Assembly: GCA_028694995.1 (NCBI GenBank) | Contig: JAQVJU010000002.1 | Span: 2,046-66,045, forward strand | DNA: 64,000 nucleotides | From: Minisyncoccota bacterium | GTDB taxonomy: Bacteria > Patescibacteriota > Minisyncoccia > UBA6257 | Reading direction: 5' to 3' | Shown: in pieces, positions 1-48,289 of the stretch | Numbering within the stretch: the stretch's first letter is position 1 | Layout: each line of letters opens with the position of its first letter | The notes under the pieces: generated by a model | Databases searched by the model: none | What the model was told of the DNA's origin: nothing | The model's input: the letters and a program-made list of their open reading frames with translations, nothing else | Program-made: the position numbers and the translations under genes

Positions 1-50
1 GGAATTGTCGGGTAATTAACTATTAAAACCAATAGTTACTTGGTTTTAAG

Positions 51-139
51 TTATCCCCAATAGACTTGACAAGGTTTTTATATTTGCTATACTAATAATG
101 CTGTCGTTTTTGGCTTGCCAAAGGCGACAGCATTTTTTT
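51..139 (+). repeat. Copy 1 of the repeated DnaA-box-like/promoter/hairpin module (TTATCCCCA variant - TTGACA - 16 nt - TATACT - hairpin GCTGTCG..CGACAGC - T7)
   Basis: Read directly. -35 TTGACA at 66-71, -10 TATACT at 88-93. Hairpin 100-131 followed by a T-tract. Near-identical to the modules at 2943, 5903, 6717 and 7563. Confidence 0.7.
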
Positions 140-257
140 ATCTCATATTATTTAGGAAGTTTTATATCTTTAATTCTTGACAAACTTATAATAAAGATAT
201 ATTATAACTCAATTAAGAACTTTGAAAACTTAATAAAAAAAAGAAAGGAGAGAAAAA

Positions 258-2209: not shown

Positions 2210-2355
2210 TGATTTTATAAAATGATAAAAGGGAAGATAAATCTTCCCTTTTTAATTTAAACCTTATATATTGACAAAATTGTATAAATGATATATAATC
2301 TTGATATATTTGAACTAGTAACTTGAAAATTAAAAAATGAAAGGAGGTGAAAGAA

Positions 2356-2898
2356 ATGAGAAAAAGATTGTTAATCTTAGTGGTTTTAATGGTATTATTC
2401 TTGGGTGCTTGTAGAGACGGAGCAATAATTCCTTCAGTGACAGAAGATATAGAGATTTGGGTAACTGGCTTTGAGCAAGAGGTATTCTGCAATAACGCTA
2501 AGGGTGTCACCAGGGTTTTTAATGGAGACTTACCTAAAGATTTGACAAGATGTTATGGTCCTCCTAGCTGTTGCCCTCCATGTAATTGCCCAGTATGTGA
2601 AGTATGTGAAGAATGCTCAGAATGTCCAACTTGCCCTTCTTGTGGACCTTGCTGCTGTTATTTGAAATGGGGAAATGTCTACGTTGATTACAAAATGAAG
2701 AATTTAGGGTTAAAGGATTTAACCGTTAAAAATGTTTGTTTTGAAATCACGTTTGAAGACAACACAAAAACTGTTAAATGCGTGGAATTACAAGAAGGTT
2801 TACTAGAGGGAGAAGTAAAAGGTAAACAAGCTAAATTCACTCTCTCTCCTGTCAAGAGAGTGATTTACGTTGTTGTGCAAAAAATAGAATATTATTAA
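2356..2898 (+). CDS. Cysteine-rich lipoprotein (signal peptide + lipobox LGAC; CxxC/CC cluster)
   Basis: Start chosen at the ATG preceded by AAGGAGGTGA. Lipobox L-G-A-C. A 30-residue tract CCPPCNCPVCEVCEECSECPTCPSCGPCCC. Confidence 0.55.
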   Translation: MRKRLLILVVLMVLFLGACRDGAIIPSVTEDIEIWVTGFEQEVFCNNAKGVTRVFNGDLPKDLTRCYGPPSCCPPCNCPVCEVCEECSECPTCPSCGPCCCYLKWGNVYVDYKMKNLGLKDLTVKNVCFEITFEDNTKTVKCVELQEGLLEGEVKGKQAKFTLSPVKRVIYVVVQKIEYY

Positions 2899-2942
2899 AA
2901 CCAAAAGGGACTATATTATATAGTCTCTTTTTCATTTTAAAA

Positions 2943-3031
2943 GTTATCCACAATAGACTTGACAAGGGATTTGGATTTGATATACTAATAATGCTGTCGT
3001 TTTTGGCTTGCCAAGGGCGACAGCATTTTTT
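2943..3031 (+). repeat. Copy 2 of the DnaA-box/promoter/hairpin module (TTATCCACA 2944-2952, TTGACA 2959-2964, TATACT 2981-2986, hairpin 2993-3024, T-tract)
   Basis: Read directly from the sequence. Confidence 0.7.
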
Positions 3032-3072
3032 ATTCCATAGTTTGCGAAATTATTAATTAATGAATAAAAGAC

Positions 3073-3199
3073 TTGACAATTTTTATTTATCATGTATACT
3101 GTTTTGTAGTGGGGTAAGCTTTTCCGGAAGAGCTTATAAAACCTATTTTCCAAAATTTTGGAGGTTTTAAAGTGGCGTTGAAAAACGCCACTTTTTTTT
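3073..3199 (+). ncRNA. Candidate small RNA: consensus sigma70 promoter (TTGACA 3073-3078, TATACT 3095-3100) driving a ~95-nt transcript that ends at the intrinsic terminator GTGGCG-TTGAAAAA-CGCCAC-T8 (3172-3199)
   Basis: Promoter spacing of 16 nt and a perfect terminator. An internal stem AAGCT-TTTCCGGAAG-AGCTT. No ORF above 9 codons. Confidence 0.4.
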
Positions 3200-3408
3200 A
3201 ACTTAATTCCTTGATTGTTTTAAAGAAGATCCTATTATTTATTGATAATATAATAATTAAGATTTACAAATTGAATTATTAAGTATTGATTAATAAAATT
3301 TTCTAATAATGATCTTTAAAATAACTCTTAAGAATTATTTTTTAAATTTAAAATTAAATTTTTAAAAATTTCCTTAAATTTGACAAATTTGTTTTTTATT
3401 TAAAAAAC

Positions 3409-3612
3409 TTGACAAGGACTTGACAAATAAAAAATAATAGAGTATCATGTAAGTACGGTGGGGTTCTCCCCTGGGTCTGCAAAGGCCCAGGGGAGACTAC
3501 TACTAAGTAGATAAACAATAAAAATGGTGGGATGCTCTCTTTTAAACAAATACAAAAGTTTATCTGCTTCCGAGGCAGATTAGTTAAATTGACGTTATTC
3601 GTCAATTTTTTT
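3409..3612 (+). ncRNA. Candidate structured small RNA (~160 nt): duplicated TTGACA (3409-3414, 3420-3425), 17-nt spacer, TATCAT (3443-3448), GC-rich stems, and terminator TTGACG-TTATTC-GTCAA-T7 (3589-3612)
   Basis: A strong 10-bp stem CTCCCCTGGG..CCCAGGGGAG, which is unusual against the AT-rich background. A second stem TCTGCTTC-CGA-GGCAGA. No plausible ORF. The antisense 69-aa ORF 3396..3605 is judged spurious. Confidence 0.45.
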
Positions 3613-3818
3613 AATTAACCACTAGATTAACTATTAGGGATTAAAAAAAGAATATTGCAGGAAGATTAGTGTTTGTGTTTTCCCCATATCAGAAATCCTC
3701 CTAATAGTTCATGATGGGACAATAGATCTATTAAAAGTGATTTTAATTTCCTTAATGATTAATTAAAAGATTATTTTGTTTCCTATGCATTTAATTATTT
3801 CAGATTTTAGTAAACATA

Positions 3819-4298
3819 ATGAATTTGATTAAACATAGAAAATTTTTACAATTATTATCATTTTTAGTAATAATAATTTGTTCTTTGTTATTTTTAATAA
3901 ATGATGTTGATGCTAAAAGAGGTTGTTGTTCTTGGCATGGCGGAGTATCTCATTGTGACTCATCGGTTGGGGGATATGTTTGTAATGATGGCACCTATAG
4001 TCCTTCTTGTACTTGCGGGGTTATAATCCCTGTTCCTATTCCTTCCCCAACTACTCTTGAGCCTACTACAACGACTACTAAACCTACAACTACAACAATA
4101 ATTGGTATAACACCCGCTGCTGTATTAGAAACAGAAATTCAAGAAAAAAACCTAGGAATAGAGGAAGAACTAGAATTTTCAGCTTCTGAAAAATTAATGG
4201 CACAAGTACATAAAGAAAACATTGGTATTTCTGCTTGGTGGTGGATAATAGGCATAGGGGCTATATCTTATTTGTTTGTCTATAAATTTAAAAAATAA
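3819..4298 (+). CDS. Secreted Cys/His-rich protein with Pro/Thr-rich linker and C-terminal TM anchor followed by basic tail (KFKK)
   Basis: N-terminal hydrophobic signal or anchor. Motif GCCSWHGGVSHCDSSVGGYVCNDGTYSPSCTC. Linker TTTTTKPTTTT. C-terminal TM segment. Confidence 0.5.
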   Translation: MNLIKHRKFLQLLSFLVIIICSLLFLINDVDAKRGCCSWHGGVSHCDSSVGGYVCNDGTYSPSCTCGVIIPVPIPSPTTLEPTTTTTKPTTTTIIGITPAAVLETEIQEKNLGIEEELEFSASEKLMAQVHKENIGISAWWWIIGIGAISYLFVYKFKK

Positions 4299-4334
4299 AA
4301 AACTAAAGGTCGAAAATTAATGAATTAAAAAAAT

Positions 4335-5846
4335 ATGAATAAAAAATTTCTTACAAAAACATTTGCAATTGCAATGGTATTAAGTTTATTACTTTCTAAT
4401 GGATTGATGTTAGGATTGGAGAGAGCAGAAGCAAAAGTAAGAAAAGAAGACCCTAGTAAAAATGGAAATGGGAATGGGAATGATGAATTATATCTTTGTC
4501 ATTTTGAAGATGAAGGAGATAATCCTTATACAAAGATACTAGGGTTTGAGAAGAATAGCATAGCTGGCGAGCATGATAAAGACGAAGATGATATTATTCC
4601 TAGTTATCTTTATACTTCAGACTGTGATGTGGAAAATCATAACTGTAAACTAAAAAAAATAGATTGGGGGAATTCTAAGACGCAAGGAAGTGTTTTGGGA
4701 GACTCTATTAATCTTGATGGGCATTTATGGCAAGGGTCACAAGAATTAGCTTCAATTATTGGGGATAGCACAAATATTAAGGTTTCTTTTTCAGATCCCC
4801 TTATGGCATATGTTATAGATCTTAAAATAAAAGAAAAAGATTCAAAAGGAAAAATATTATCTGAAAAAGATTATGCTTCTAAATGCCAAGGTCCAGAGGG
4901 TTGTACTCTTTCTCCGGAAGAAGGAATTAAGTTTTACTCTGTAAGTTGGGATCTGCAAAAAGTTAACAAATTTCACTATGAGTGTTATTATCCTGGTAAA
5001 AATTTGGAGAGTGGGCAAGACATTTTAAATAATAATTGCGAGGTTCCCTCAGAAAATGAAAATGGGGAAGGGAATGGGGAAGGGAATGGAGAAGGGGATG
5101 GAGAAGGGAATGGAGGAGGGAATGGAGAAGGAACTACAACTACTACAACAACAAGACCTGGTCCTACAGGTTCACATATTCCACCACAAGAAGCTCATGG
5201 GGAAGGCTCTTTAGGAGAACCTGGCCCTGGGGAGGGTATTGTAGCTGGTGCTGCTTGTGTTCCTTATATCCAAGAATATATTCAATATGGAGCTGATAAT
5301 GATCCATTTGAAGTTAGGAAATTACAAATCTTCTTAAATGGATATTTGGGATTGAATTTAGATGTTAATGGAATTTATGATTTAGAAACATTTGAAGCTG
5401 TAAAAACATTCCAACTTATGTTCAAGGATGATATTTTAGCTCCTTGGGTTGCAAATGGATGCTTACCTTCAAAAGAAATAGCTACGGGTTATGTTTATCG
5501 AACTACTAGTTGGGCGATTAATAAAGTTTTTTGCCCAGGAATGGAAATAGATATTTCTGATGAAATATGTTTTGGCTTAGGTGAAGGATTAGTTTTAGGA
5601 GAATCTATTGCCTTAGCTGATGATGGCTCAATGTCAGAAGGAGATATTTTAGATTTTCCTGTTAGTTCTGAACAAGAACCAGAAGAAGAAGTAATGGAAA
5701 TTTCAGAAACTGAAGATATAGAAACAACAGAATTAGAAGAAACAGAAGAAGAAACAGCAACTAATAAAGGAGCCATAATAGCTTTATTAGTTGTTTTAGC
5801 CTTAGGTGGCTTAGCTTACTTTATCTTTAGAGGAAAACGAACTTGA
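4335..5846 (+). CDS. Large secreted surface protein: signal peptide, GNGNGNG and GEGNGEGNG repeats, Thr7 linker, PG_binding_1-like domain, acidic E/T-rich tract, C-terminal TM anchor + RGKRT tail
   Basis: The segment VRKLQIFLNGYLGLNLDVNGIYDLETFEAVKTFQ matches the peptidoglycan-binding (PG_binding_1) consensus. The C-terminus AIIALLVVLALGGLAYFIFRGKRT forms a TM anchor plus basic tail. Confidence 0.6.
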   Translation: MNKKFLTKTFAIAMVLSLLLSNGLMLGLERAEAKVRKEDPSKNGNGNGNDELYLCHFEDEGDNPYTKILGFEKNSIAGEHDKDEDDIIPSYLYTSDCDVENHNCKLKKIDWGNSKTQGSVLGDSINLDGHLWQGSQELASIIGDSTNIKVSFSDPLMAYVIDLKIKEKDSKGKILSEKDYASKCQGPEGCTLSPEEGIKFYSVSWDLQKVNKFHYECYYPGKNLESGQDILNNNCEVPSENENGEGNGEGNGEGDGEGNGGGNGEGTTTTTTTRPGPTGSHIPPQEAHGEGSLGEPGPGEGIVAGAACVPYIQEYIQYGADNDPFEVRKLQIFLNGYLGLNLDVNGIYDLETFEAVKTFQLMFKDDILAPWVANGCLPSKEIATGYVYRTTSWAINKVFCPGMEIDISDEICFGLGEGLVLGESIALADDGSMSEGDILDFPVSSEQEPEEEVMEISETEDIETTELEETEEETATNKGAIIALLVVLALGGLAYFIFRGKRT

Positions 5847-5866
5847 AGGTTAGAAATTGGATAAAA

Positions 5867-5894
5867 ACAGGGCTAAATATAGCCCTGTTTTTTA
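5867..5894 (+). terminator. Intrinsic terminator of the 4335..5846 gene (ACAGGGCT-AAATAT-AGCCCTGT-T7)
   Basis: Perfect 8-bp GC-rich stem plus a T-tract. Confidence 0.7.
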
Positions 5895-5902
5895 TTTCTT
5901 AA

Positions 5903-5999
5903 GTTATCCACAAAAGACTTGACAAGGTTTTTATATTTGCTATACTATTAGTGCTGTCATTTAGAGAAGCTTGCTTCAATGAATGACAGCATTTTTTTT
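5903..5999 (+). repeat. Copy 3 of the module (TTATCCACA 5904-5912, TTGACA 5919-5924, TATACT 5941-5946, variant hairpin GCTGTCATT..AATGACAGC 5953-5990, T8)
   Basis: The stem is conserved and extended by compensatory changes while the loop is replaced. Confidence 0.7.
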
Positions 6000-6157
6000 A
6001 TAATTTTTTGATAAAAGAAGTGATTAGTCATCTCTTTTTTTATTTGTTAATTAATTAAAGATAGTTTTAATTTATATTGACTTTAAGTATTTAAAATGGT
6101 ATAATTATAAAAGGATAAAAGAGTTCTTTTAAAAATAAAAATAAGGAGGAAAAGAAA

Positions 6158-6694
6158 ATGGAAGAGAGAAAAAAGAAAGTTTTTATTTTAATTTTTGCTG
6201 TGGTTTTTATATTCATTTTAGTAGATTATGTAAATTGGAGATTATCCCATAATTGGGAGATTGTAGATACCAATTTACCAGTTGAAACCATAAACAGCAC
6301 CGTATGGAGAAGCGCAAGTATAGATATACTTGATCCTATCAAATCTCCTCCAAAAAGTTATGAGTATTCAAATCTTAGGATAGCGGCATTTAAGGTACGG
6401 TACCCTAAAGCTAAGGGAGGAGGATATGTTCATGAAGTTTTTCTTAGGGAGTGGTTTAAGAGGAGTAACTTAAAAGTTCGCTATACGGGCTTTGAAGGGA
6501 TACCGGATTTTTATATTGCTGTAGAATTCATACAGGGAAGAATGGAAATCATCAGTGATAGCAAGTTATATAATTATAAAGGAGAAATCTTTATAGAATT
6601 ATTTTCCAATAATAAGAATTTACTGGCTCAAAAAAGAATTAAGGTAAACATAAATAACAAACCGCCAGAGGTAAAAGAATTAACAGGGCTTTAA
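6158..6694 (+). CDS. Hypothetical N-terminally membrane-anchored protein, paralog A of a tandem pair
   Basis: Strong RBS AAGGAGGA. N-terminal TM helix. Shares the motifs YPK.K, NLK and F..V.FI.GR..I...Y.GEI.I.L with the 6967..7539 product. Confidence 0.5.
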   Translation: MEERKKKVFILIFAVVFIFILVDYVNWRLSHNWEIVDTNLPVETINSTVWRSASIDILDPIKSPPKSYEYSNLRIAAFKVRYPKAKGGGYVHEVFLREWFKRSNLKVRYTGFEGIPDFYIAVEFIQGRMEIISDSKLYNYKGEIFIELFSNNKNLLAQKRIKVNINNKPPEVKELTGL

Positions 6695-6706: not shown

Positions 6707-6716
6707 CATTTCTTGA

Positions 6717-6806
6717 GTTATCCACAAAAGACTTGACAAGGTTTTTAAATTTGCTATACTAATAATGCTGTCGTTTTTGGCTTGCCAGAAGCGGCAGCAT
6801 TTTTTT
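6717..6806 (+). repeat. Copy 4 of the module (TTATCCACA 6718-6726, TTGACA 6733-6738, TATACT 6755-6760, hairpin GCTGTCG..CGGCAGC with a U-G wobble, T7)
   Basis: Read directly from the sequence. Confidence 0.7.
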
Positions 6807-6966
6807 ATAATTTTTTGATAAAAGAGATGATTTATCATCTCTTTTTTAATGGTTAATTAATTAAAGATAGTTTTAATTTATATTGACTTTAATCATTTAA
6901 AATGGTATAATTATAAAAAGATAAAAGAGTTCTTTTAAAAATAAAAATTAAAGAGGAGAGAAAAAA

Positions 6967-7539
6967 ATGAAAAAGGTTTTTATAGTTATTCTAATTATAA
7001 TTATAGGGTTATTTTTAATAGATTTTATAGGTTATGTAATAAAATCAAGCTATAAAGAGAATAAGGAGCTGGGGGGAAGTTGGGAAATCGAAAGTTTAGA
7101 CCTGCCAATCATAATAAGAAAAAACTGTATCGTAGTGGGGGGTCCAAGTTGGGAACCAGAAGACCCTTTGCCCTCAAGAGTTGAAAGGGATGTATTTTTA
7201 GAAATGAGGGTAGCCAATTTTAGAATATACTACCCTAAAACAAAAAATATAGTCCATGAAATTGATCTCCAAATGTGGGAAAAGCAGGGAAACTTGAAGT
7301 TATATGTCGCTAGACCTGAAGAGTCGAACCCCTTCAAAATGAGTACTGTAAAGTTTATAGAGGGGAGAGTAGATATCTGGCTTAGAATGGAAGTCGGTAA
7401 GTATGAGGGGGAGATTCATATTCAGCTAATTAATAATGACGGGATATTAATAGGTGAAGGCAAGGCCTTTGTGGAAGTAAATATAGAAAAGGGGGTGCTA
7501 GAGATACTAGAAGAAGAATTTAATATAACAGGGTCTTAA
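6967..7539 (+). CDS. Hypothetical N-terminally membrane-anchored protein, paralog B of the tandem pair
   Basis: A ~150-bp upstream region, including a TTGACT-17-TATAAT promoter and RBS, is about 90% identical to that of 6158. The proteins are much more diverged than these flanks. Confidence 0.5.
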   Translation: MKKVFIVILIIIIGLFLIDFIGYVIKSSYKENKELGGSWEIESLDLPIIIRKNCIVVGGPSWEPEDPLPSRVERDVFLEMRVANFRIYYPKTKNIVHEIDLQMWEKQGNLKLYVARPEESNPFKMSTVKFIEGRVDIWLRMEVGKYEGEIHIQLINNDGILIGEGKAFVEVNIEKGVLEILEEEFNITGS

Positions 7540-7562
7540 GGCTCTGTTTTTATTATTTCTGA

Positions 7563-7652
7563 GTTATCCACAAAAGACTTGACAAGGTTTTTATATTTGC
7601 TATACTAATAATGCTGTCGTTTTTGGCTTGCCAGAAGCGGCAGCATTTTTTT
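7563..7652 (+). repeat. Copy 5 of the module (TTATCCACA 7564-7572, TTGACA 7579-7584, TATACT 7601-7606, hairpin 7613-7644, T7)
   Basis: Read directly from the sequence. Confidence 0.7.
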
Positions 7653-7744
7653 ATAATTCTTATTATTGACAAAAAGACAATAACAAGATATTATCTAAAT
7701 TAGATATTTAGTACTTTGAAAATTAAAAAAGGAGATATTAAAAA

Positions 7745-18630: not shown

Positions 18631-18704
18631 ATTTTTTATTGATTTGTATTTTATTTAATGATATAGTATTATCTAATAGGGTTTTCGTCAAGTCTTTTTT
18701 TATT

Positions 18705-18777
18705 GCTCCCGTAGCTCAATTGGTAGAGCAACAGCCTTTTAAGCTGGCGGTTGCGCGTTCAAGTCGCGCCGGGGGCA
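18705..18777 (+). tRNA. tRNA-Lys (anticodon UUU), CCA not encoded
   Basis: Cloverleaf folded by hand. Acceptor GCTCCCG/CGGGGGC, D-arm GCTC-AATTGGTA-GAGC, anticodon loop CTTTTAA (U33, UUU, A37), T-arm GCGCG-TTCAAGT-CGCGC, discriminator A. Confidence 0.85.
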
Positions 18778-18788
18778 CAATTAAAAAA

Positions 18789-20084
18789 ATGAATTACAAA
18801 AGGATTTTAATTGTTTTTATTGTTTTTTTGGCGACTGTTTTAGCGTCAATTTTTATTTACCCTCAAGGGATAACTAGTTTAGGGATAAAATTGCCTAAAT
18901 TCTTTGATAAGGAATTTAGTTTTGGTTTGGATATTTCTGGAGGCACTTTATTAATTTATGAGGCAGATTTAAGCAATGTAGAGCCTGAAGATTATTCTTC
19001 AGCGATGACTGGATTAAGAGATGTGATTGAAAGAAGAATTAATTATTCAGGGGTTAAAGAACCACGAATAACAGCAAACAAGAGTGGAGAAGTTTGGCGT
19101 TTAACTGTTGAATTGGCTGGAATTAAAGATATTCAAGAAGCAATAAAGATGATCGGAGAAACTCCTTTTTTAGAATTTAGGGAATTACGTGAAGAAGAAG
19201 AAACCAAAGAACTGTTAGAAATGGAAGAAATGTCTGAAGATGTAGACCCTTATTTCAAACCAACTATTTTAACAGGAAAATATTTAAAAAGAGCAGAAGT
19301 TAATTTTGAATCAACCACTTCTTTGCCAGTTATTAATTTATCTTTTAATGATGAAGGGGCTGAGATTTTTGCTGAATTGACCAAAGAGAATATTGGTAAA
19401 CCATTGGCGATTTATTTAGATGGTTATCCAATTAGCATCCCTACAGTTCAGGAAGAAATTCCTTCTGGCATGGCTCAAATTTCTGGTCAGTTTACCTTAG
19501 CTGAAGCAAAAGAATTAGTTTTAAGATTAAATCAGGGGGCTTTGCCAGTGCCAATAAATTTAATATCTCAACAATCTGTTGGCGCTATCTTAGGCGACCA
19601 ATCTATGGAAAAAATTGTCCAGGCAGCTTTTTGGGGTTTTATTTTGGTGATTTTATTTATGATTGCTGTTTATCGTTTGCCAGGGTTATTAGCTTCTTTA
19701 TCTTTGATTATTTATGTTGTTTTGACTTTGAGTATATTTAAGTTTATTCCAGTGACTTTGACTTTGACTGGGATTACTGGATTTATTCTTTCTATTGGCA
19801 TGGCAGTAGATACTAATGTTTTGATTTTTGAACATGCTAAAGAGGAAATTAAAAAGAATAAACCTTTGAAAATTGCCATGGAAGATGGTTATCAAAAATC
19901 ATGGCCAGCTATTCGGGATTCTAATATTGCTACAATTATATCAGCAATTATTCTTTATTACTTTACTTCTAATATGATTAGGGGATTTGCACTTACTTTG
20001 GCTATTGGTGTGGGTACAGGATTGTTAACTGCAATTTTCATTACGAAGTTATTCTTAGGAGTGGTTTATAGTAAAAAAAGTTAA
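18789..20084 (+). CDS. secD: Protein translocase subunit SecD
   Basis: Motif LGLDISGGT and a C-terminal 6-TM domain. The ORF-track start at 18639 is rejected because it runs through the tRNA. Confidence 0.85.
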   Translation: MNYKRILIVFIVFLATVLASIFIYPQGITSLGIKLPKFFDKEFSFGLDISGGTLLIYEADLSNVEPEDYSSAMTGLRDVIERRINYSGVKEPRITANKSGEVWRLTVELAGIKDIQEAIKMIGETPFLEFRELREEEETKELLEMEEMSEDVDPYFKPTILTGKYLKRAEVNFESTTSLPVINLSFNDEGAEIFAELTKENIGKPLAIYLDGYPISIPTVQEEIPSGMAQISGQFTLAEAKELVLRLNQGALPVPINLISQQSVGAILGDQSMEKIVQAAFWGFILVILFMIAVYRLPGLLASLSLIIYVVLTLSIFKFIPVTLTLTGITGFILSIGMAVDTNVLIFEHAKEEIKKNKPLKIAMEDGYQKSWPAIRDSNIATIISAIILYYFTSNMIRGFALTLAIGVGTGLLTAIFITKLFLGVVYSKKS

Positions 20085-45030: not shown

Positions 45031-45990
45031 ATGAAAAGAAGCAATCAACCAATCCCCTCCTATTTAAATGATTTTTTAGATTGGTTAGAAATACAAAAAG
45101 GATTATCATCTAAGACACAAGAAAACTATGCAAGGTTTTTAAAAAAGTTTTTAGATTGGTTAAAAGAAAACAAGATGGAAGAGCTTAAACCTCATGAGCT
45201 ATCTTCTGATCATATATGGGATTATCGGGTTTTTCTATCTCGTCAATCTGTTAGTCATTTAGGTAGACCTCTTAAAAAATCCACCCAGAATTATTATTTG
45301 ATAGCTTTAAGGTCTTTATTAAATTTCTTTGCTGATAAAGATATTCTTTCATTACCAGCTGAGAAAATAGAATTAGCCAGAGATAAAGGAGATAAACAAA
45401 TAAGGTTCTTAGATTTAGAACAATTGGAAAGATTATTTTCTGCGCCTGATATTTCAAAAATTCAAGGATTAAGAGATAGAGCTATCTTAGAAATTTTCTT
45501 TTCAACAGGAATGCGTATTTCAGAATTAACTTCATTAAATCGTGAACAAATCAAAATCAAACCCAACATTACTGATTTAGAATTAAGTATTATTGGTAAA
45601 GGTGGCCGGATGAGAACTGTATATATCTCAGAAAGAGCTTTGTCTTGGTTAAAAAAATACTTAGATTTACGAGAAGATAAAGAAAAAGCTTTGTTTGTAA
45701 ATCATCAAATTAAAAAAGGTGTTCCAAAAAGATTAACTAATCGCTCTATAGAAAAATCAATGAAAAAGTATGTGATTATGGCTGGTTTACCTTTAAATAC
45801 TACGCCTCATGTTTTAAGACATTCTTTTAGCACTGATTTATTAGCTCAAGGTGTTGATATTAGAATTCTTCAAGAATTTTTAGGTCATAAGAATATTGCA
45901 GCTACTCAGATTTACGCTCATGTAACTAATAAGAAACTTAGAGAAATTCACCGGAAGTTTCATGGTGGTAGAAAACAAAAATTACTTTAA
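45031..45990 (+). CDS. Tyrosine site-specific recombinase (XerC/XerD/phage-integrase family)
   Basis: N-terminal SAM-like domain. Catalytic R...HxxR...Y (HVLRHSFSTDLL, IYAHV). Followed by the bidirectional terminator at 45998-46023. Confidence 0.8.
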   Translation: MKRSNQPIPSYLNDFLDWLEIQKGLSSKTQENYARFLKKFLDWLKENKMEELKPHELSSDHIWDYRVFLSRQSVSHLGRPLKKSTQNYYLIALRSLLNFFADKDILSLPAEKIELARDKGDKQIRFLDLEQLERLFSAPDISKIQGLRDRAILEIFFSTGMRISELTSLNREQIKIKPNITDLELSIIGKGGRMRTVYISERALSWLKKYLDLREDKEKALFVNHQIKKGVPKRLTNRSIEKSMKKYVIMAGLPLNTTPHVLRHSFSTDLLAQGVDIRILQEFLGHKNIAATQIYAHVTNKKLREIHRKFHGGRKQKLL

Positions 45991-45997
45991 AAGAAAA

Positions 45998-46023
45998 AAC
46001 CGGCTTGGATTAACCAGCCGGTT
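45998..46023. terminator. Bidirectional intrinsic terminator (A-tract - AACCGGCTTGG-ATTAA-CCAGCCGGTT - T-tract) between convergent genes
   Basis: GC-rich 10-bp stem flanked by A and T tracts. Confidence 0.65.
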
Positions 46024-46028
46024 ATTAT

Positions 46029-46334
46029 TTAATATTCGTTATATCCTCCTTTTTGTATAATTTCTTTGCTTTTTTTACCTTTTTCATTTCCACAAATATA
46101 AATCCTATAATTATTTCTTGCCTCCGGAGAAAGTTTTCCTCCTTCAGGAATATTCAAGTCTATATCATATATTTCCTTCATATCTCGAAAGGCTTTTTTC
46201 CAGGTTTTCTTAACTTTCTTTAAAATTTTCTGGAAAATAATTCGGTCTTCCTTTTTGTGGTAAGTGGATAAACTTAGATTTAGTTCTCCTGATTCTAAAT
46301 TCATCCACCCCTCTAGCCATATTAACCTTTTCAT
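46029..46334 (-). CDS. Small hypothetical protein
   Basis: ORF with RBS AAAGGAGGTAAAAG. Confidence 0.3.
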   Translation of the reverse strand: MKRLIWLEGWMNLESGELNLSLSTYHKKEDRIIFQKILKKVKKTWKKAFRDMKEIYDIDLNIPEGGKLSPEARNNYRIYICGNEKGKKSKEIIQKGGYNEY

Positions 46335-46346
46335 CTTTTACCTCCT

Positions 46347-46595
46347 TTATTTTTTATAAACTTGATAATCCGCACTAAAAGGCACAAAGGTAGACTCATA
46401 ATATCCCTTAGCCCTGTTATACTTCCTTGCAGCTATTTTCTTAGCTTGGGCTAAGGAGAACCCACCTTGCCAGATGTGATACTCATCATCAGGCTCGATC
46501 ACTATCAGGTGGTATACAAATGGCCATTTTCTACTCTGGCTTTTCCTTTCTGGAATCGAGAATAATTTCAATTGCTCTTGGAATTTAGAATCCAT
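46347..46595 (-). CDS. Small hypothetical protein
   Basis: ORF with a GAGG RBS. Co-oriented with the 46029 ORF. Confidence 0.3.
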   Translation of the reverse strand: MDSKFQEQLKLFSIPERKSQSRKWPFVYHLIVIEPDDEYHIWQGGFSLAQAKKIAARKYNRAKGYYESTFVPFSADYQVYKK

Positions 46596-46735
46596 TTGCT
46601 TTTCCTCTCTTTCTTTTTAAATTTTCAAAATACTGATATTATTATATCAGTTATAAAATATTTTGTCAATGGAAAGTAAATGGTAAATCAGTAAAAAATA
46701 TGATAAAATGTTTTAAGTAAAAGATTAATTCAAAT

Positions 46736-47911
46736 ATGAGAGTTAGTTATTCTAGTTTAGAAAACTTTAAACAGTGCCCTCTAAAGTATAAATATTCACA
46801 AATAGATAAATTAAAAGAGCCTAAAAGCAAAGAGGCTGTTTTTGGCACTTATATCCACAAAGTTCTTAAATGGTTTTATCAAAAAGACCCTCACTTCCCT
46901 ACTCTAGATGCTTTATTAGATTATTATAAAGAATCTTGGCCTAAAAAATCAGAAGGATTTGAATGGCAAGATCCAGAAGAAGAAAATTCATATTTTAAAG
47001 AAGGAATTAGAATCTTAGAAGAATATTATAAAACTAATATCCCCCACCAGACTTCTATCTTGGATTTGGAAACTAGGTTTGAGGTTACCATAGATGAAGA
47101 TCCAGACAAACCTAATAAAAAACACATTTTAACTGGTATTATTGACCGAATAGATAAATTACCTGATGGGAGAATGGAGATAATAGATTACAAGACTGGT
47201 AAACGAATTGCTTCTCAAAGAGAAACAGATTCTAGTGCCCAATTATCTTTGTATGCTATTGGAGTTAAAAATCGTTGGCCCAGAACAGATTTAAAAAATC
47301 TGTCTTTAAGTTTGTATTTTCTTAAATTTAATGAAAAGATTCAATCTCAAAGAACAGAAGAAGATTTAGAAAAAAGCAAAGAAGAAGTTATTAAAACAAT
47401 TCATAAGATAGAAAAAAGTAGTTTTGAACCCAGGCCATCGCCTTTATGTGGTTGGTGCGGTTATCGGAATATTTGTCCAATTTGGAAACACTTGTATGAA
47501 ATAGAAAATCAAATCAATGGAGAAAATGTTAAAGAAAAAATAGATGAATACTTTAAGCTCAAAGAAAAAAAAGAGAAAATAGAAGAAGAGCTTTGTAATT
47601 TAAAAAATTGCATAGAAGATTATAGCCATGAAAAAGGTCTAAAGAGAGTTTTTGGAGAAAATGGGTATTTTAGTCGTACGGTTCATAACAAAGTTTCATA
47701 CAATAAAAAACAATTAAAAGAAGTATTAGAGCCTTTAGGAAAATGGGAAGAAATCCTAGGCATAGACCAAAAAAGACTAGACAAGGTTTTAAAAGAAATC
47801 CCTCAAGAATTAAGAGATAAGGTAAAAGCAGCTGAGAAAATAGAAAAAAAATATAAATATCTCACTTCAAATAATGTAAGCAAGAAAGAATTAGAAGAAG
47901 AATTAGAATAA
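46736..47911 (+). CDS. PD-(D/E)XK nuclease superfamily protein, Cas4/RecB-like with predicted Fe-S cluster (1 N-terminal + 3 C-terminal Cys)
   Basis: Motifs GIIDRID, EIIDYKTGK and a Q..S.Y-like segment. N-terminal Cys in FKQCP plus C-terminal CGWCGYRNICP. Confidence 0.6.
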   Translation: MRVSYSSLENFKQCPLKYKYSQIDKLKEPKSKEAVFGTYIHKVLKWFYQKDPHFPTLDALLDYYKESWPKKSEGFEWQDPEEENSYFKEGIRILEEYYKTNIPHQTSILDLETRFEVTIDEDPDKPNKKHILTGIIDRIDKLPDGRMEIIDYKTGKRIASQRETDSSAQLSLYAIGVKNRWPRTDLKNLSLSLYFLKFNEKIQSQRTEEDLEKSKEEVIKTIHKIEKSSFEPRPSPLCGWCGYRNICPIWKHLYEIENQINGENVKEKIDEYFKLKEKKEKIEEELCNLKNCIEDYSHEKGLKRVFGENGYFSRTVHNKVSYNKKQLKEVLEPLGKWEEILGIDQKRLDKVLKEIPQELRDKVKAAEKIEKKYKYLTSNNVSKKELEEELE

Positions 47912-47914
47912 TTA

Positions 47915-48289
47915 TTAATTACACCTAGTATTATAAGTATAGCCATTAGCTTCAGCTTCTTCTCGAGATTTAAAATAGATTTTATTTTCTTCTTTTAAGC
48001 TATTAGCTAAGCTACATTCAACAGGATAATAGTATTTTCCTCGAGAACTGGCTACAAAAGGAAATTCTTTTTGTGCTTCTTTTTTAGCTTCAATTTGAGC
48101 TAATCCTTGTTCTAAATCAAGGATTAATTCTTTTTCAATAATGATTGGCGGACGACTAAGAATATTAGCGCCAAGAATAATTCCTGAGGTAAAAGAAAAA
48201 ACAATAGTCAAAAAAATAAAACTGGAGAGCCAGAAATGCTTTTTGACAAAATCAATAATTTTTGCTAATATTTTTAAACAGTGGGGCAT
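47915..48289 (-). CDS. Membrane-anchored protein with C-terminal Ada-type zinc-binding domain
   Basis: N-terminal TM segment. C-terminus YYPVECSLANSLKEENKIYFKSREEAEANGYTYNTRC resembles the Ada metal-binding domain consensus. Confidence 0.4.
   Translation of the reverse strand: MPHCLKILAKIIDFVKKHFWLSSFIFLTIVFSFTSGIILGANILSRPPIIIEKELILDLEQGLAQIEAKKEAQKEFPFVASSRGKYYYPVECSLANSLKEENKIYFKSREEAEANGYTYNTRCN

What the first reader, a model, noticed from the sequence alone, without database searches (positions are those of the whole stretch)
3819..5846. Two surface proteins sharing signal peptide + low-complexity linker + C-terminal TM helix with basic tail; the larger one carries a peptidoglycan-binding domain and GNG/GEGNG repeats
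The 3819..4298 protein has the Cys/His motif GCCSWHGGVSHCDSSVGGYVCNDGTYSPSCTC, a T/P-rich linker and a C-terminal TM plus KFKK. The 4335..5846 protein has GNGNGNG and five GEGNG repeats, a Thr7 tract and a PG_binding_1-like segment (VRKLQIFLNGYLGLNLDVNGIYDLETFEAVKTFQ). It then has a 60-residue acidic E/T tract and a C-terminal TM plus RGKRT. C-terminal TM plus basic tail is the layout of sortase, exosortase and archaeosortase substrates. No LPXTG, PEP or PGF tripeptide precedes the helix, and no sortase gene is in the window. These may be cell-surface proteins retained by a C-terminal anchor. A peptidoglycan-binding domain on a small-genome, possibly episymbiotic organism could target host cell wall.
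Basis: partly seen in the sequence, partly recalled or inferred. Interest (0 to 1): 0.5.

Follow-up and report, generated by a model that had tools for sequence, protein, structure and literature searches.

The report
Two membrane-tethered surface proteins, Paceibacterota
These are two real but fairly ordinary cell-surface proteins of a tiny-genome (CPR/Paceibacterota) bacterium, each held in the membrane by a plain C-terminal helix; the larger one carries a genuine peptidoglycan-binding domain that most likely grips the cell's own wall and displays a head that differs from strain to strain.

Summary
ORFs 3819..4298 (A, 159 aa) and 4335..5846 (B, 503 aa) exist with the quoted motifs. Both have a Sec-type signal peptide, a low-complexity linker, one C-terminal helix and a basic tail.

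In syntenic loci of related strains, gene A, B's signal peptide and B's C-terminal cassette are kept at about 90% identity. B's head is replaced, giving three different heads.

A's Cys-rich module is a widespread 35-aa disulfide module. It is homologous to E. coli YdcA and to both lobes of Legionella Dot/Icm Dis2.

The sorting-signal idea is not supported. There is no conserved motif before the helix, no sorting-signal HMM passes, and the window has no sortase. The window encodes its own peptidoglycan synthesis genes, so binding to the cell's own wall is the simpler reading than host-wall targeting.

The parts
3819..3914 (+). Gene A signal peptide (aa 1-32, MNLIKHRKF...INDVDA, predicted cleavage after VDA)
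   Evidence: Basic n-region, 17-residue hydrophobic core, V-x-A at -3/-1 (read directly). In 100+ homologs the conserved module starts at the Ala right after the hydrophobic stretch.
3915..4019 (+). Gene A Cys-rich module (aa 33-67, KRGCCSWHGGVSHCDSSVGGYVCNDGTYSPSCTCG; 6 Cys), YdcA/Dis2-type
   Evidence: 109 homologs, module 57-86% identical. E. coli YdcA: 35% over 48 aa, E 5e-8. NCBIfam PRK10040 E 5e-7, below cutoff. Profile against PDB: Legionella Dis2 (7MUC and others) E 4.2e-16, both lobes.
4020..4226 (+). Gene A stalk: P/T-rich linker (aa 68-99) and acidic segment (aa 100-136, net -6)
   Evidence: Composition. Not conserved among homologs outside close strains.
4227..4298 (+). Gene A C-terminal helix ISAWWWIIGIGAISYLFVY (aa 137-155), tail KFKK and stop codon
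   Evidence: Hydropathy. 48 non-redundant homologs carry an analogous helix plus K/R tail without a conserved pre-helix motif.
4335..4433 (+). Gene B signal peptide (aa 1-33, MNKKFLTKTFAIAMVLSLLLSNGLMLGLERAEA)
   Evidence: Read directly. The same MNK(K/Q)(F/I)L(S/T)K... leader heads giant relatives P0114, P0119, P0130, P0136. DNA homology to L003 and L006 runs to about 4411-4414.
4434..5054 (+). Gene B strain-variable head (aa 34-240), with motifs LCH..NPY..HD..DIIPSY and YPGKNL..GQDILNNNC.VP; 7 Cys
   Evidence: No homolog in the indexed 5.8-billion-protein search. Weak homolog at the N-terminus of P0150 (29% over 240 aa, E 2e-8 in a small database); motifs shared with P0115 and P0155. Replaced by unrelated sequence in L003-L005 and L006. 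AF2 confidence too low to use.
5055..5231 (+). Gene B low-complexity linker (aa 241-299): G/N/E repeats, T7, PGPTGSH..., Gly/Pro-rich
   Evidence: Composition. Homology to L003 resumes at 5159 and to L006 at 5232.
5232..5570 (+). Gene B PG_binding_1-type domain (aa 300-412) with flank motif GIVAGA and Cys308/Cys400 (family-wide pair) plus Cys376/Cys412
5571..5762 (+). Gene B post-domain motif GLVLGES and polyanionic stalk (aa 413-476; 23 D/E, 0 K/R)
   Evidence: Composition. In 57 of 153 relatives the stretch from the end of the PG domain to the C-terminus (linker, helix and tail) is 80-108 aa, with an acidic or Thr-rich linker. The motif lies downstream of the core in 39 of 59 long-tailed members.
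5763..5846 (+). Gene B C-terminal helix (about aa 479-498, GAIIALLVVLALGGLAYFIF), tail RGKRT and stop codon
   Evidence: Hydropathy. Conserved in P0001-P0004. LPXTG_anchor model positions 8-32 only, 13.3 bits, below the 15.9 cutoff.
5863..5892 (+). Intrinsic-terminator-like hairpin after B (13-bp stem plus T-run); no terminator between A and B (36-nt gap), so A-B is probably one transcript

Best explanation
A and B are two independent type I (N-terminus outside, C-terminus inside) membrane-anchored surface proteins of a Paceibacterota bacterium. This organism is about 90% identical at this locus to 'Candidatus Paceibacterota bacterium STE_68'.

Both proteins are exported by the Sec pathway and cut by signal peptidase I. 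They are held by an ordinary stop-transfer helix with an aromatic belt and a positive-inside tail. No dedicated sorting enzyme is needed.

Protein A displays a 35-residue, six-cysteine disulfide module of the YdcA/Dis2 type. It sits at the tip of a Pro/Thr-rich and then acidic stalk.

Protein B is the short form of a mosaic family. Reading outward from the membrane it has a helix, a 64-residue polyanionic stalk, and a PG_binding_1 domain clamped by a conserved Cys pair. That domain most likely docks into the cell's own peptidoglycan. Next come a Gly/Asn/Glu/Thr spacer and then a distal head. The signal peptide and the C-terminal cassette are kept between strains while the head is exchanged, which suggests the head is the interaction surface under diversifying pressure.

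Shown here: domain identities, architecture, family distribution, head replacement, purifying selection and own-peptidoglycan genes. Inferred: topology, the disulfides, binding to the cell's own wall, and what the head and the A module bind.
For: - ORFs and segments.
- Family: 3,999 representatives. The domain is terminal in 92 of 153 members and followed by linker, helix and basic tail in 57 of 153.
- Head swap: window 4415-5158 is replaced in L003-L005, and window 4412-5231 is replaced in L006, which is syntenic (lipoprotein gene, A, B) at about 90% identity.
- dN/dS is about 0.3.
- No conserved pre-helix motif. Sorting-signal HMMs fail.
- Own peptidoglycan machinery in the window: Ddl, FtsW/RodA, MurG, two Mur ligases, Amidase_2.
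- A module. Dis2 is described as two similar lobes pinned by five disulfides near the outer membrane (PMC8486379).
Against: - No experimental or dedicated topology or signal-peptide predictor was available; topology rests on hydropathy, charge and the family-wide position of the cleavage Ala.
- Binding to peptidoglycan, and to the cell's own rather than a host's, is inferred from homology and domain order only.
- Full-length B scores 22.5 bits, 0.5 below Pfam's cutoff.
- The helix in one B subfamily (..NWIWxLIG....GG.AYLVY..) and in A (AWWWIIGIGAISYLFVY) is better conserved than a pure anchor needs.
- Relatives P0119 and P0121 pass the LPXTG_anchor cutoff on the helix-plus-tail part (18.8 and 18.0 bits).
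- A sortase gene lies three genes from the family member in 5 of 28 related loci.
- A highly specific flank motif G-x-[VI]-[LAV]-G-[AEST] is unexplained.
Confidence: 0.7

Rival explanations
1. The C-terminal helix plus basic tail, possibly together with the G-x-V-L-G-A/E flank motif, is a new sorting or processing signal. A sortase-like or other enzyme would then cleave A and B or attach them covalently to the wall.
For: The layout matches sorting signals. LPXTG_anchor model positions 8/9-33 match the tails of B (13.3 bits), P0119 (18.8) and P0121 (18.0). Sortase (PF04203, E 4.7e-20) lies three genes downstream of the family member in L007/L014, L013, L016 and L021. The flank motif is extremely specific: 108 of 153 members upstream and 39 of 59 downstream, against 2 hits in 72,029 aa elsewhere. 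Gly at -8/-7 and aromatics at -4..-1 recur in the helices.
Against: The LPXTG positions of the model are not matched, and no pentapeptide is conserved before the helix. A's tail hits no sorting model. The tail is absent from 60% of family members. There is no sortase in the window or in the closest loci L001-L006 and L009-L011. In the loci that do have a sortase, the adjacent PKD protein has a better candidate signal (..APTGL.., then a helix, then KSR). The flank motif sits next to the PG domain, 45-60 residues from the helix, not at it.
Confidence: 0.08
2. B's peptidoglycan-binding domain targets the cell wall of a host bacterium during episymbiosis.
For: The organism is a Paceibacterota/CPR member, a group with many episymbionts (general knowledge). 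PG_binding_1 is real. 92 of 153 family members have no membrane anchor and could act at a distance.
Against: In B the PG domain is the folded element nearest the membrane, with the variable head distal. The window encodes the cell's own peptidoglycan synthesis genes. The PG domain is the conserved part (dN/dS 0.3; 60-88% identity among relatives) while the head is what varies. That pattern fits a housekeeping anchor better than a host-recognition element.
Confidence: 0.12
3. B is a cell-wall enzyme (lysin or remodelling enzyme) whose unannotated head is catalytic, with PG_binding_1 as its substrate-targeting domain, as in endolysins.
For: PG_binding_1 is usually attached to hydrolases; all PDB matches are such enzymes. 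The head has conserved Cys/His/Asp motifs (LCH, GEHD, DDIIP).
Against: No Pfam, NCBIfam or PHROG catalytic family hits the head. Relatives carry adhesin-like parts instead: Big_7 (weak), a choice-of-anchor C domain and Cys-rich repeats. The PKD domain seen in these loci belongs to a neighbouring protein, not to a B relative. The head is freely replaced between strains. The PG domain is C-terminal and membrane-proximal, unlike endolysins.
Confidence: 0.05

Closest known systems
PG_binding_1 (Pfam PF01471) domains of endolysins and wall enzymes (Burkholderia phage AP3 endolysin 5NM7, SleB N-domain 6TCI, Streptomyces Zn DD-peptidase 1LBU)
   Different: Here the domain is non-catalytic and C-terminal. 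It carries an insertion (..D.ILAPWV..G..) between helices and is bracketed by a conserved Cys pair and by G-x-V-L-G-A/E flank motifs. In B it is followed by a polyanionic stalk and a membrane helix.
E. coli YdcA (b1419; NCBIfam PRK10040), a 57-aa secreted protein of unknown function
   Same: A signal peptide followed at once by C..GG(V/I)SHC....(Y/F)VCNDG(T/S).S.S; 35% identity, E 5e-8.
   Different: YdcA has 4 Cys and is the module alone. A has 6 Cys (a CC start and a C-x-C end) plus a stalk and membrane anchor. A scores 29 bits against the equivalog cutoff of 93.
[quoted passage not shown]
   Same: Each of its two lobes aligns to the A-type module (GCCSKMGGINYCDSSAGRLVCNNGFYS and GCCLWHGGV....SGLVVCNDGYVS); profile E 4.2e-16. 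It is disulfide-pinned (PMC8486379).
   Different: Dis2 is a tandem pair in a Gram-negative secretion machine and has been treated as restricted to Legionellales (PMC12716638). A has a single module on a membrane-tethered stalk in an organism with no evidence of such a machine.
LPXTG sortase substrates (TIGR01167)
   Same: N-terminal signal peptide, C-terminal hydrophobic helix and K/R tail. The helix-plus-tail part of the model matches B-type tails.
   Different: No LPXTG or variant lies within reach of the helix, no sortase is nearby, and the tail is dispensable in the family.
Surface proteins of Gram-positive bacteria held by a C-terminal membrane helix without sortase processing, such as Listeria ActA (from general knowledge, not tested here)
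   Same: Signal peptide, extended low-complexity region, C-terminal stop-transfer helix and basic tail, with the functional domain displayed distally.
   Different: B adds a wall-binding domain between stalk and head; there is no sequence relationship.

Membership tests
PG_binding_1 (PF01471) | HMM score at or above the gathering cutoff (23 bits) | tested here: met
   Domain segment aa 296-430: 25.3 bits, E 1.8e-5. Full-length protein 22.5 bits, just under. Relative P0003 26.9 bits. 50 of 54 family members hit, best 2.4e-9.
PG_binding_1 (PF01471) | Three-helix PG-binding fold | tested here: met
PG_binding_1 (PF01471) | Actual binding to peptidoglycan | not testable with these tools
   Needs sacculus pull-down with the recombinant domain.
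YdcA / PRK10040 (NCBIfam equivalog) | Score above the equivalog cutoff (93-118 bits) | tested here: not met
   29.4 and 25.1 bits; YdcA itself scores 147. A is a homolog of the module (E 5e-8), not an equivalog.
Dis2-type disulfide module | Sequence homology to the Dis2 lobes | tested here: met
   Profile A5 against PDB: E 4.2e-16; lobe 1 at 4.9e-8 and lobe 2 at 1.4e-6.
Dis2-type disulfide module | [quoted passage not shown] | not tested
   No systematic search for T4SS genes was made. Neighbouring genes are small secreted or membrane proteins and housekeeping genes.
LPXTG sortase substrate (TIGR01167) | LPXTG-type pentapeptide just before the C-terminal helix | tested here: not met
   Absent in A and B (direct reading). 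No LP.T[GAS] in the last 50 aa of any A- or B-family member. Pre-helix positions carry <=1.4 bits.
LPXTG sortase substrate (TIGR01167) | Model score >= 15.9 bits | tested here: not met
   B tail 13.3 bits (positions 8-32 only); A no hit.
LPXTG sortase substrate (TIGR01167) | Hydrophobic helix plus basic tail at the C-terminus | tested here: met
LPXTG sortase substrate (TIGR01167) | Sortase encoded in the genome or nearby | tested here: inconclusive
   None in the 64-kb window or in the closest loci. Present near distant family members in 5 of 28 loci. The rest of the genome could not be searched.
PEP-CTERM / PGF-CTERM / GlyGly-CTERM and other exosortase, archaeosortase or rhombosortase signals | Signature motif and a curated HMM hit | tested here: not met
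   No such NCBIfam model at E<=1 on the full proteins or at E<=10 on the tails. The only other hit is JDVT-CTERM at E 4.3, 7.3 bits against a cutoff of 27.
Bacterial lipoprotein | Lipobox [LVI][ASTVI][GAS]C at the end of the signal peptide | tested here: not met
   A has IIIC inside the hydrophobic core (no small residue at -1) and B has no Cys in its leader. The neighbour 2347..2898 does have LGAC.

The most novel reading that the evidence does not exclude
The 80-108-residue C-terminal cassette, together with the highly specific flank motif G-x-[VI]-[LAV]-G-[AEST], is a previously undescribed surface-protein processing or attachment signal of Patescibacteria. The cassette consists of a PG_binding_1 domain, a low-complexity stalk, a Gly/aromatic-patterned helix and a basic tail. 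The motif would be a cleavage or transpeptidation site. Strain-variable heads would then be released from, or covalently fixed next to, a wall-docked membrane stub.
Probability: 0.08. Interest if true: 0.7.

Novelty: new member of a known kind. Interest (0 to 1): 0.3.

Why it matters
For CPR/Patescibacteria biology, the result points to a common way of displaying surface proteins. A C-terminal PG_binding_1 domain, with or without a membrane helix, carries very different and sometimes giant ectodomains. At this locus the displayed head is exchanged between close strains, so it is a concrete candidate for a host- or phage-facing determinant.

Separately, the A module links three things that had been treated apart. 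These are the orphan E. coli protein YdcA, the Legionella Dot/Icm component Dis2 (described in the literature as restricted to Legionellales and without structural relatives), and a widespread family of Patescibacteria surface proteins. Together they define one small disulfide-rich module that already has a solved structure.

None of this changes a major concept. It refines annotation and gives testable handles.

Tried and rejected
- Full-length AF2 of B with 5 sequences gave pLDDT 34.7 and was unusable. It was replaced by a domain model with 54 sequences.
- The indexed homolog search with B's head alone found nothing. Only a local BLAST against already fetched relatives showed a weak relative.
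- PDB sequence search with the shallow profile A1 gave only E about 0.4; the deeper A3 profile was needed.
- Pfam has no model in the local copy for the A module. PF27300 and PF12587, listed in precomputed hits, could not be reproduced locally.
- Literature searches for DUF3761, YdcA, and Patescibacteria or CPR with peptidoglycan-binding surface proteins gave nothing relevant.
- Cluster look-up for taxon names of 10 family members returned no taxon names; one member was labelled 'cysteine-rich repeat protein'.
The AFDB Foldseek library was unavailable.
- A functional A-B pairing was rejected. Adjacency is seen only in loci about 90% identical to the window, and not near the more distant B relatives (L002, L007, L009-L033).
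- My first sortase check by the TLxTC regex was inadequate, because the Paceibacterota sortases found later use LLISCWPP. It was redone with an HMM.
- Rfam found nothing for the structured intergenic RNAs.
Full report
**Observation.**
ORFs 3819..4298 (A, 159 aa) and 4335..5846 (B, 503 aa) are on the + strand, 36 nt apart. No terminator lies between them, and a 13-bp terminator hairpin follows B. Every quoted motif is present. Two minor corrections apply. GEGNG occurs three times exactly, or five times with variants. The acidic tract is aa 413-476 (64 aa, 23 D/E, no K/R).

Both proteins start with a basic n-region, a hydrophobic core and a small-x-small site (VDA|KR in A, AEA|KV in B). Both end with a hydrophobic helix and a K/R tail. 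In the 64-kb window they are the only single-pass proteins with that ending.

The genes are real. The same pair occurs in L001 (97.8% identity), in L003-L005 and in L006 (about 90%). dN/dS is about 0.3 for A and for B's C-terminal part.

**Organism.**
The window has about 30% G+C. L006 is 'Candidatus Paceibacterota bacterium isolate STE_68', syntenic at about 90% identity. B's relative P0003 is annotated by NCBI as Paceibacterota. The window encodes Ddl, FtsW/RodA, MurG, two Mur ligases and an Amidase_2, so the cell makes its own peptidoglycan.

**Protein B, C-terminal part.**
- Pfam PG_binding_1 scores 22.5 bits on the whole protein, against a cutoff of 23. On the domain alone it scores 25.3 bits, and 50 of 54 relatives hit the model.
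- A 54-sequence profile finds only PG-binding enzymes in the PDB.
- Compared with the canonical domain there is an insertion (..D.ILAPWV..G..). There is also an invariant or near-invariant Cys pair at the domain ends, C308 and C400 in B.

**The family.**
A profile of B's C-terminal 221 residues finds 3,999 cluster representatives at E<=1e-3, and 2,724 at <=1e-10. I examined 153 of them.
- The core is at the extreme C-terminus in 92.
- It is followed by an 80-108-aa tail in 57. The tail is an acidic or Thr-rich linker, then a helix, then a basic tail.
- 30 have two or three tandem cores.
- Proteins range from 120 to 1,749 aa.

The closest giants begin with B's own leader, MNK(K/Q)(F/I)L(S/T)K.... 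They carry Cys-rich repeats and a choice-of-anchor C domain, and P0003 has a weak Big_7 match.

A short motif G-x-[VI]-[LAV]-G-[AEST] lies within 40 aa before the core in 108 of 153 members. It lies within 45 aa after the core in 39 of 59 long-tailed members. Elsewhere in these proteins it occurs twice in 72,029 aa; one search gave a similar result on independent loci. B has it on both sides, as GIVAGA (301) and GLVLGE (418). AF2 leaves both copies disordered. I have no explanation for this motif.

**Protein B, head.**
DNA homology to L003-L005 covers window 2509-4414 and 5159-5962. Homology to L006 covers 2605-4411 and 5232-6001. The segment between, B aa about 27-275/299, is replaced by unrelated sequence.
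- In L006 the replacement is a 745-aa protein with a (GQ)n run and other domains.
- In L003 it is a split gene of 82 aa plus 530 aa.

This gives three different heads at one locus, under a conserved leader and anchor cassette. The window's head found no homolog in the indexed search. It does resemble the N-terminus of family member P0150 (29% over 240 aa). It shares the motifs ICH..NPY..HD..DIIP and YPGKNW..G.AI.N.C.VP with P0115 and P0155. Its function is unknown, and no catalytic family matches.

**Protein A.**
The 35-aa module A-(K/R/Q)-x-GCCSWHGGVS(H/G/Y)CD.S.GR.VCNDGTYSPSC(T/G)C is 57-86% identical across 109 proteins. It almost always starts directly after the signal peptide.

What follows the module varies. 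It may be a linker, helix and basic tail as in A, a G5 domain, an Excalibur domain, or other segments.

**Is the tail a sorting signal?**
- NCBIfam finds no sorting-signal model on the full proteins at E<=1.
- On the isolated tails only the helix-plus-tail positions (8/9-33 of 34) of LPXTG_anchor match. B scores 13.3 bits, below the 15.9 cutoff. Relatives P0119 and P0121 score 18.8 and 18.0. A has no hit.
- I aligned 44 B-type and 48 A-type non-redundant tails on the first basic residue. No pre-helix position exceeds 1.4 bits. Inside the helix the only trends are Gly at -8/-7 (B family), aromatics at -4..-1, and Trp near the outer end. These are the usual interface features of membrane helices.
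- The tail is optional in the family.
- An HMM of the sortases found below has no hit in the window at E<=10, nor in the loci closest to it at E<=1e-3.

I conclude that these are ordinary stop-transfer anchors.

**A caveat.**
Among 28 related loci, five (at least four genomes) show a conserved gene order. It runs PG-core protein, a 699-aa protein, a CAP-domain membrane protein, a sortase (PF04203, E 4.7e-20, active-site LLISCWPP), and a PKD protein. The PKD protein ends ..AVAGTATEAPTGL.., then a helix, then KSR, and is the likelier substrate. This keeps the processing hypothesis alive at low probability.

**Own wall or host wall?**
In B the PG domain is the folded element closest to the membrane, on a 64-residue polyanionic stalk. 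That is a distance compatible with reaching the cell's own wall layer (inference). The PG domain is the conserved part and the head is the variable part. The cell makes peptidoglycan. Self-anchoring is therefore the simpler reading; host binding is not excluded.

**Verdict.**
The C-terminal-anchored surface-protein reading is supported. The sorting-signal and host-wall ideas are not supported.

The added value is threefold:
- the large C-terminal PG_binding_1 display family with an unexplained flank motif;
- head replacement at a conserved locus;
- the link between YdcA, Dis2 and the Patescibacteria module.

I rate this a new member of known kinds, with modest interest.

Noticed in passing
window 46-152, 2941-3030, 5900-5990, 6715-6808, 7560-7655 (+); also L002 2656-2755 and 4517-4577: A repeated intergenic unit: a near-consensus promoter (TTGACA, 16 nt, TATACT) followed at once by a 17-bp hairpin plus T-run (AATGCTGTCGTTTTTGGCTTGCCAGAAGCGGCAGCATTTTTTT). 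One copy has a compensatory stem change (GCTGTCA..TGACAGC). It precedes several genes for small secreted or membrane proteins and is conserved in another Paceibacterota contig. It could be a leader/attenuator or a tiny RNA. No Rfam family matches.
   Followed up: partly
window 3420-3612 (+), upstream of gene A: Promoter-like sites (3409/3420) are followed by a roughly 160-nt strongly structured RNA (MFE -56.7 kcal/mol, z = -5.6, 0 of 200 shuffles as stable) that ends in a terminator hairpin (3586-3608), 210 nt before A's start. A second promoter-to-terminator unit lies at 3073-3194. No Rfam match. It may be an unknown sRNA or a cis-regulatory leader of the A-B transcript.
   Followed up: partly
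window 3915-4019; PDB 7MUC/7MUD chain for Lpg0823: Legionella Dis2 is described in the literature as Legionellales-restricted and without structural relatives. It is built from two copies of a module that is widespread in Patescibacteria surface proteins and present in E. coli YdcA (PMC8486379, PMC12716638).
   Followed up: partly
B aa 301-306 and 418-423 (window 5235-5252, 5586-5603); family-wide: The motif G-x-[VI]-[LAV]-G-[AEST] flanks the PG_binding_1 core with very high specificity: 108 of 153 members upstream and 39 of 59 downstream, against 2 hits in 72 kaa elsewhere. Its role is unknown.
   Followed up: partly
window 2347..2898 (+); L006 4286..4960: A lipoprotein-like gene (lipobox LFLGAC) with a dense CxxC/CPxC tract (..CCPPCNCPVCEVCEECSECPTCPSCGPCCC..). 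The tract is expanded in the STE_68 relative (224 aa against 183 aa). No family hit.
   Followed up: no
window 6158..6694 and 6967..7539 (+): Two paralogous small proteins with an N-terminal membrane helix and no family hit, each preceded by the promoter-hairpin unit. They are also duplicated in L006.
   Followed up: no
L007/L014, L013, L016, L021: A conserved cluster: PG-core surface protein, a 699-aa protein, a CAP-domain membrane protein, a sortase with active-site LLISCWPP, and a PKD protein ending ..APTGL.., a helix and KSR. This looks like a Parcubacteria sortase with a non-LPXTG candidate signal.
   Followed up: partly
L002 190-4410, L009, L011; L006 8813-10075: An M16-type peptidase homolog (HLLEH) sits next to B homologs in four loci. 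In three of them a radical-SAM/SPASM protein and a 52-aa ORF lie upstream, which suggests a peptide-maturation cluster.
   Followed up: no
L013 2135-7443; L023: In two loci the PG-core surface protein gene directly follows a type IV pilus-like cluster: ATPase, platform protein and prepilin-like genes with ..GFSLVEM.. leaders.
   Followed up: no
window about 46000-48000: GC skew drops from +0.16..+0.33 to about 0 and then turns negative, and gene orientation changes from almost all + to mixed or - at about 46 kb. An integrase/recombinase-like ORF sits at 45031..45990. This may be a replication landmark.
   Followed up: no
window 18639..20084 (+) and tRNA-Lys 18705..18778: The mechanical ORF start of the SecD-like gene overlaps a tRNA-Lys gene, so the true start must lie downstream of the tRNA.
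   Followed up: no
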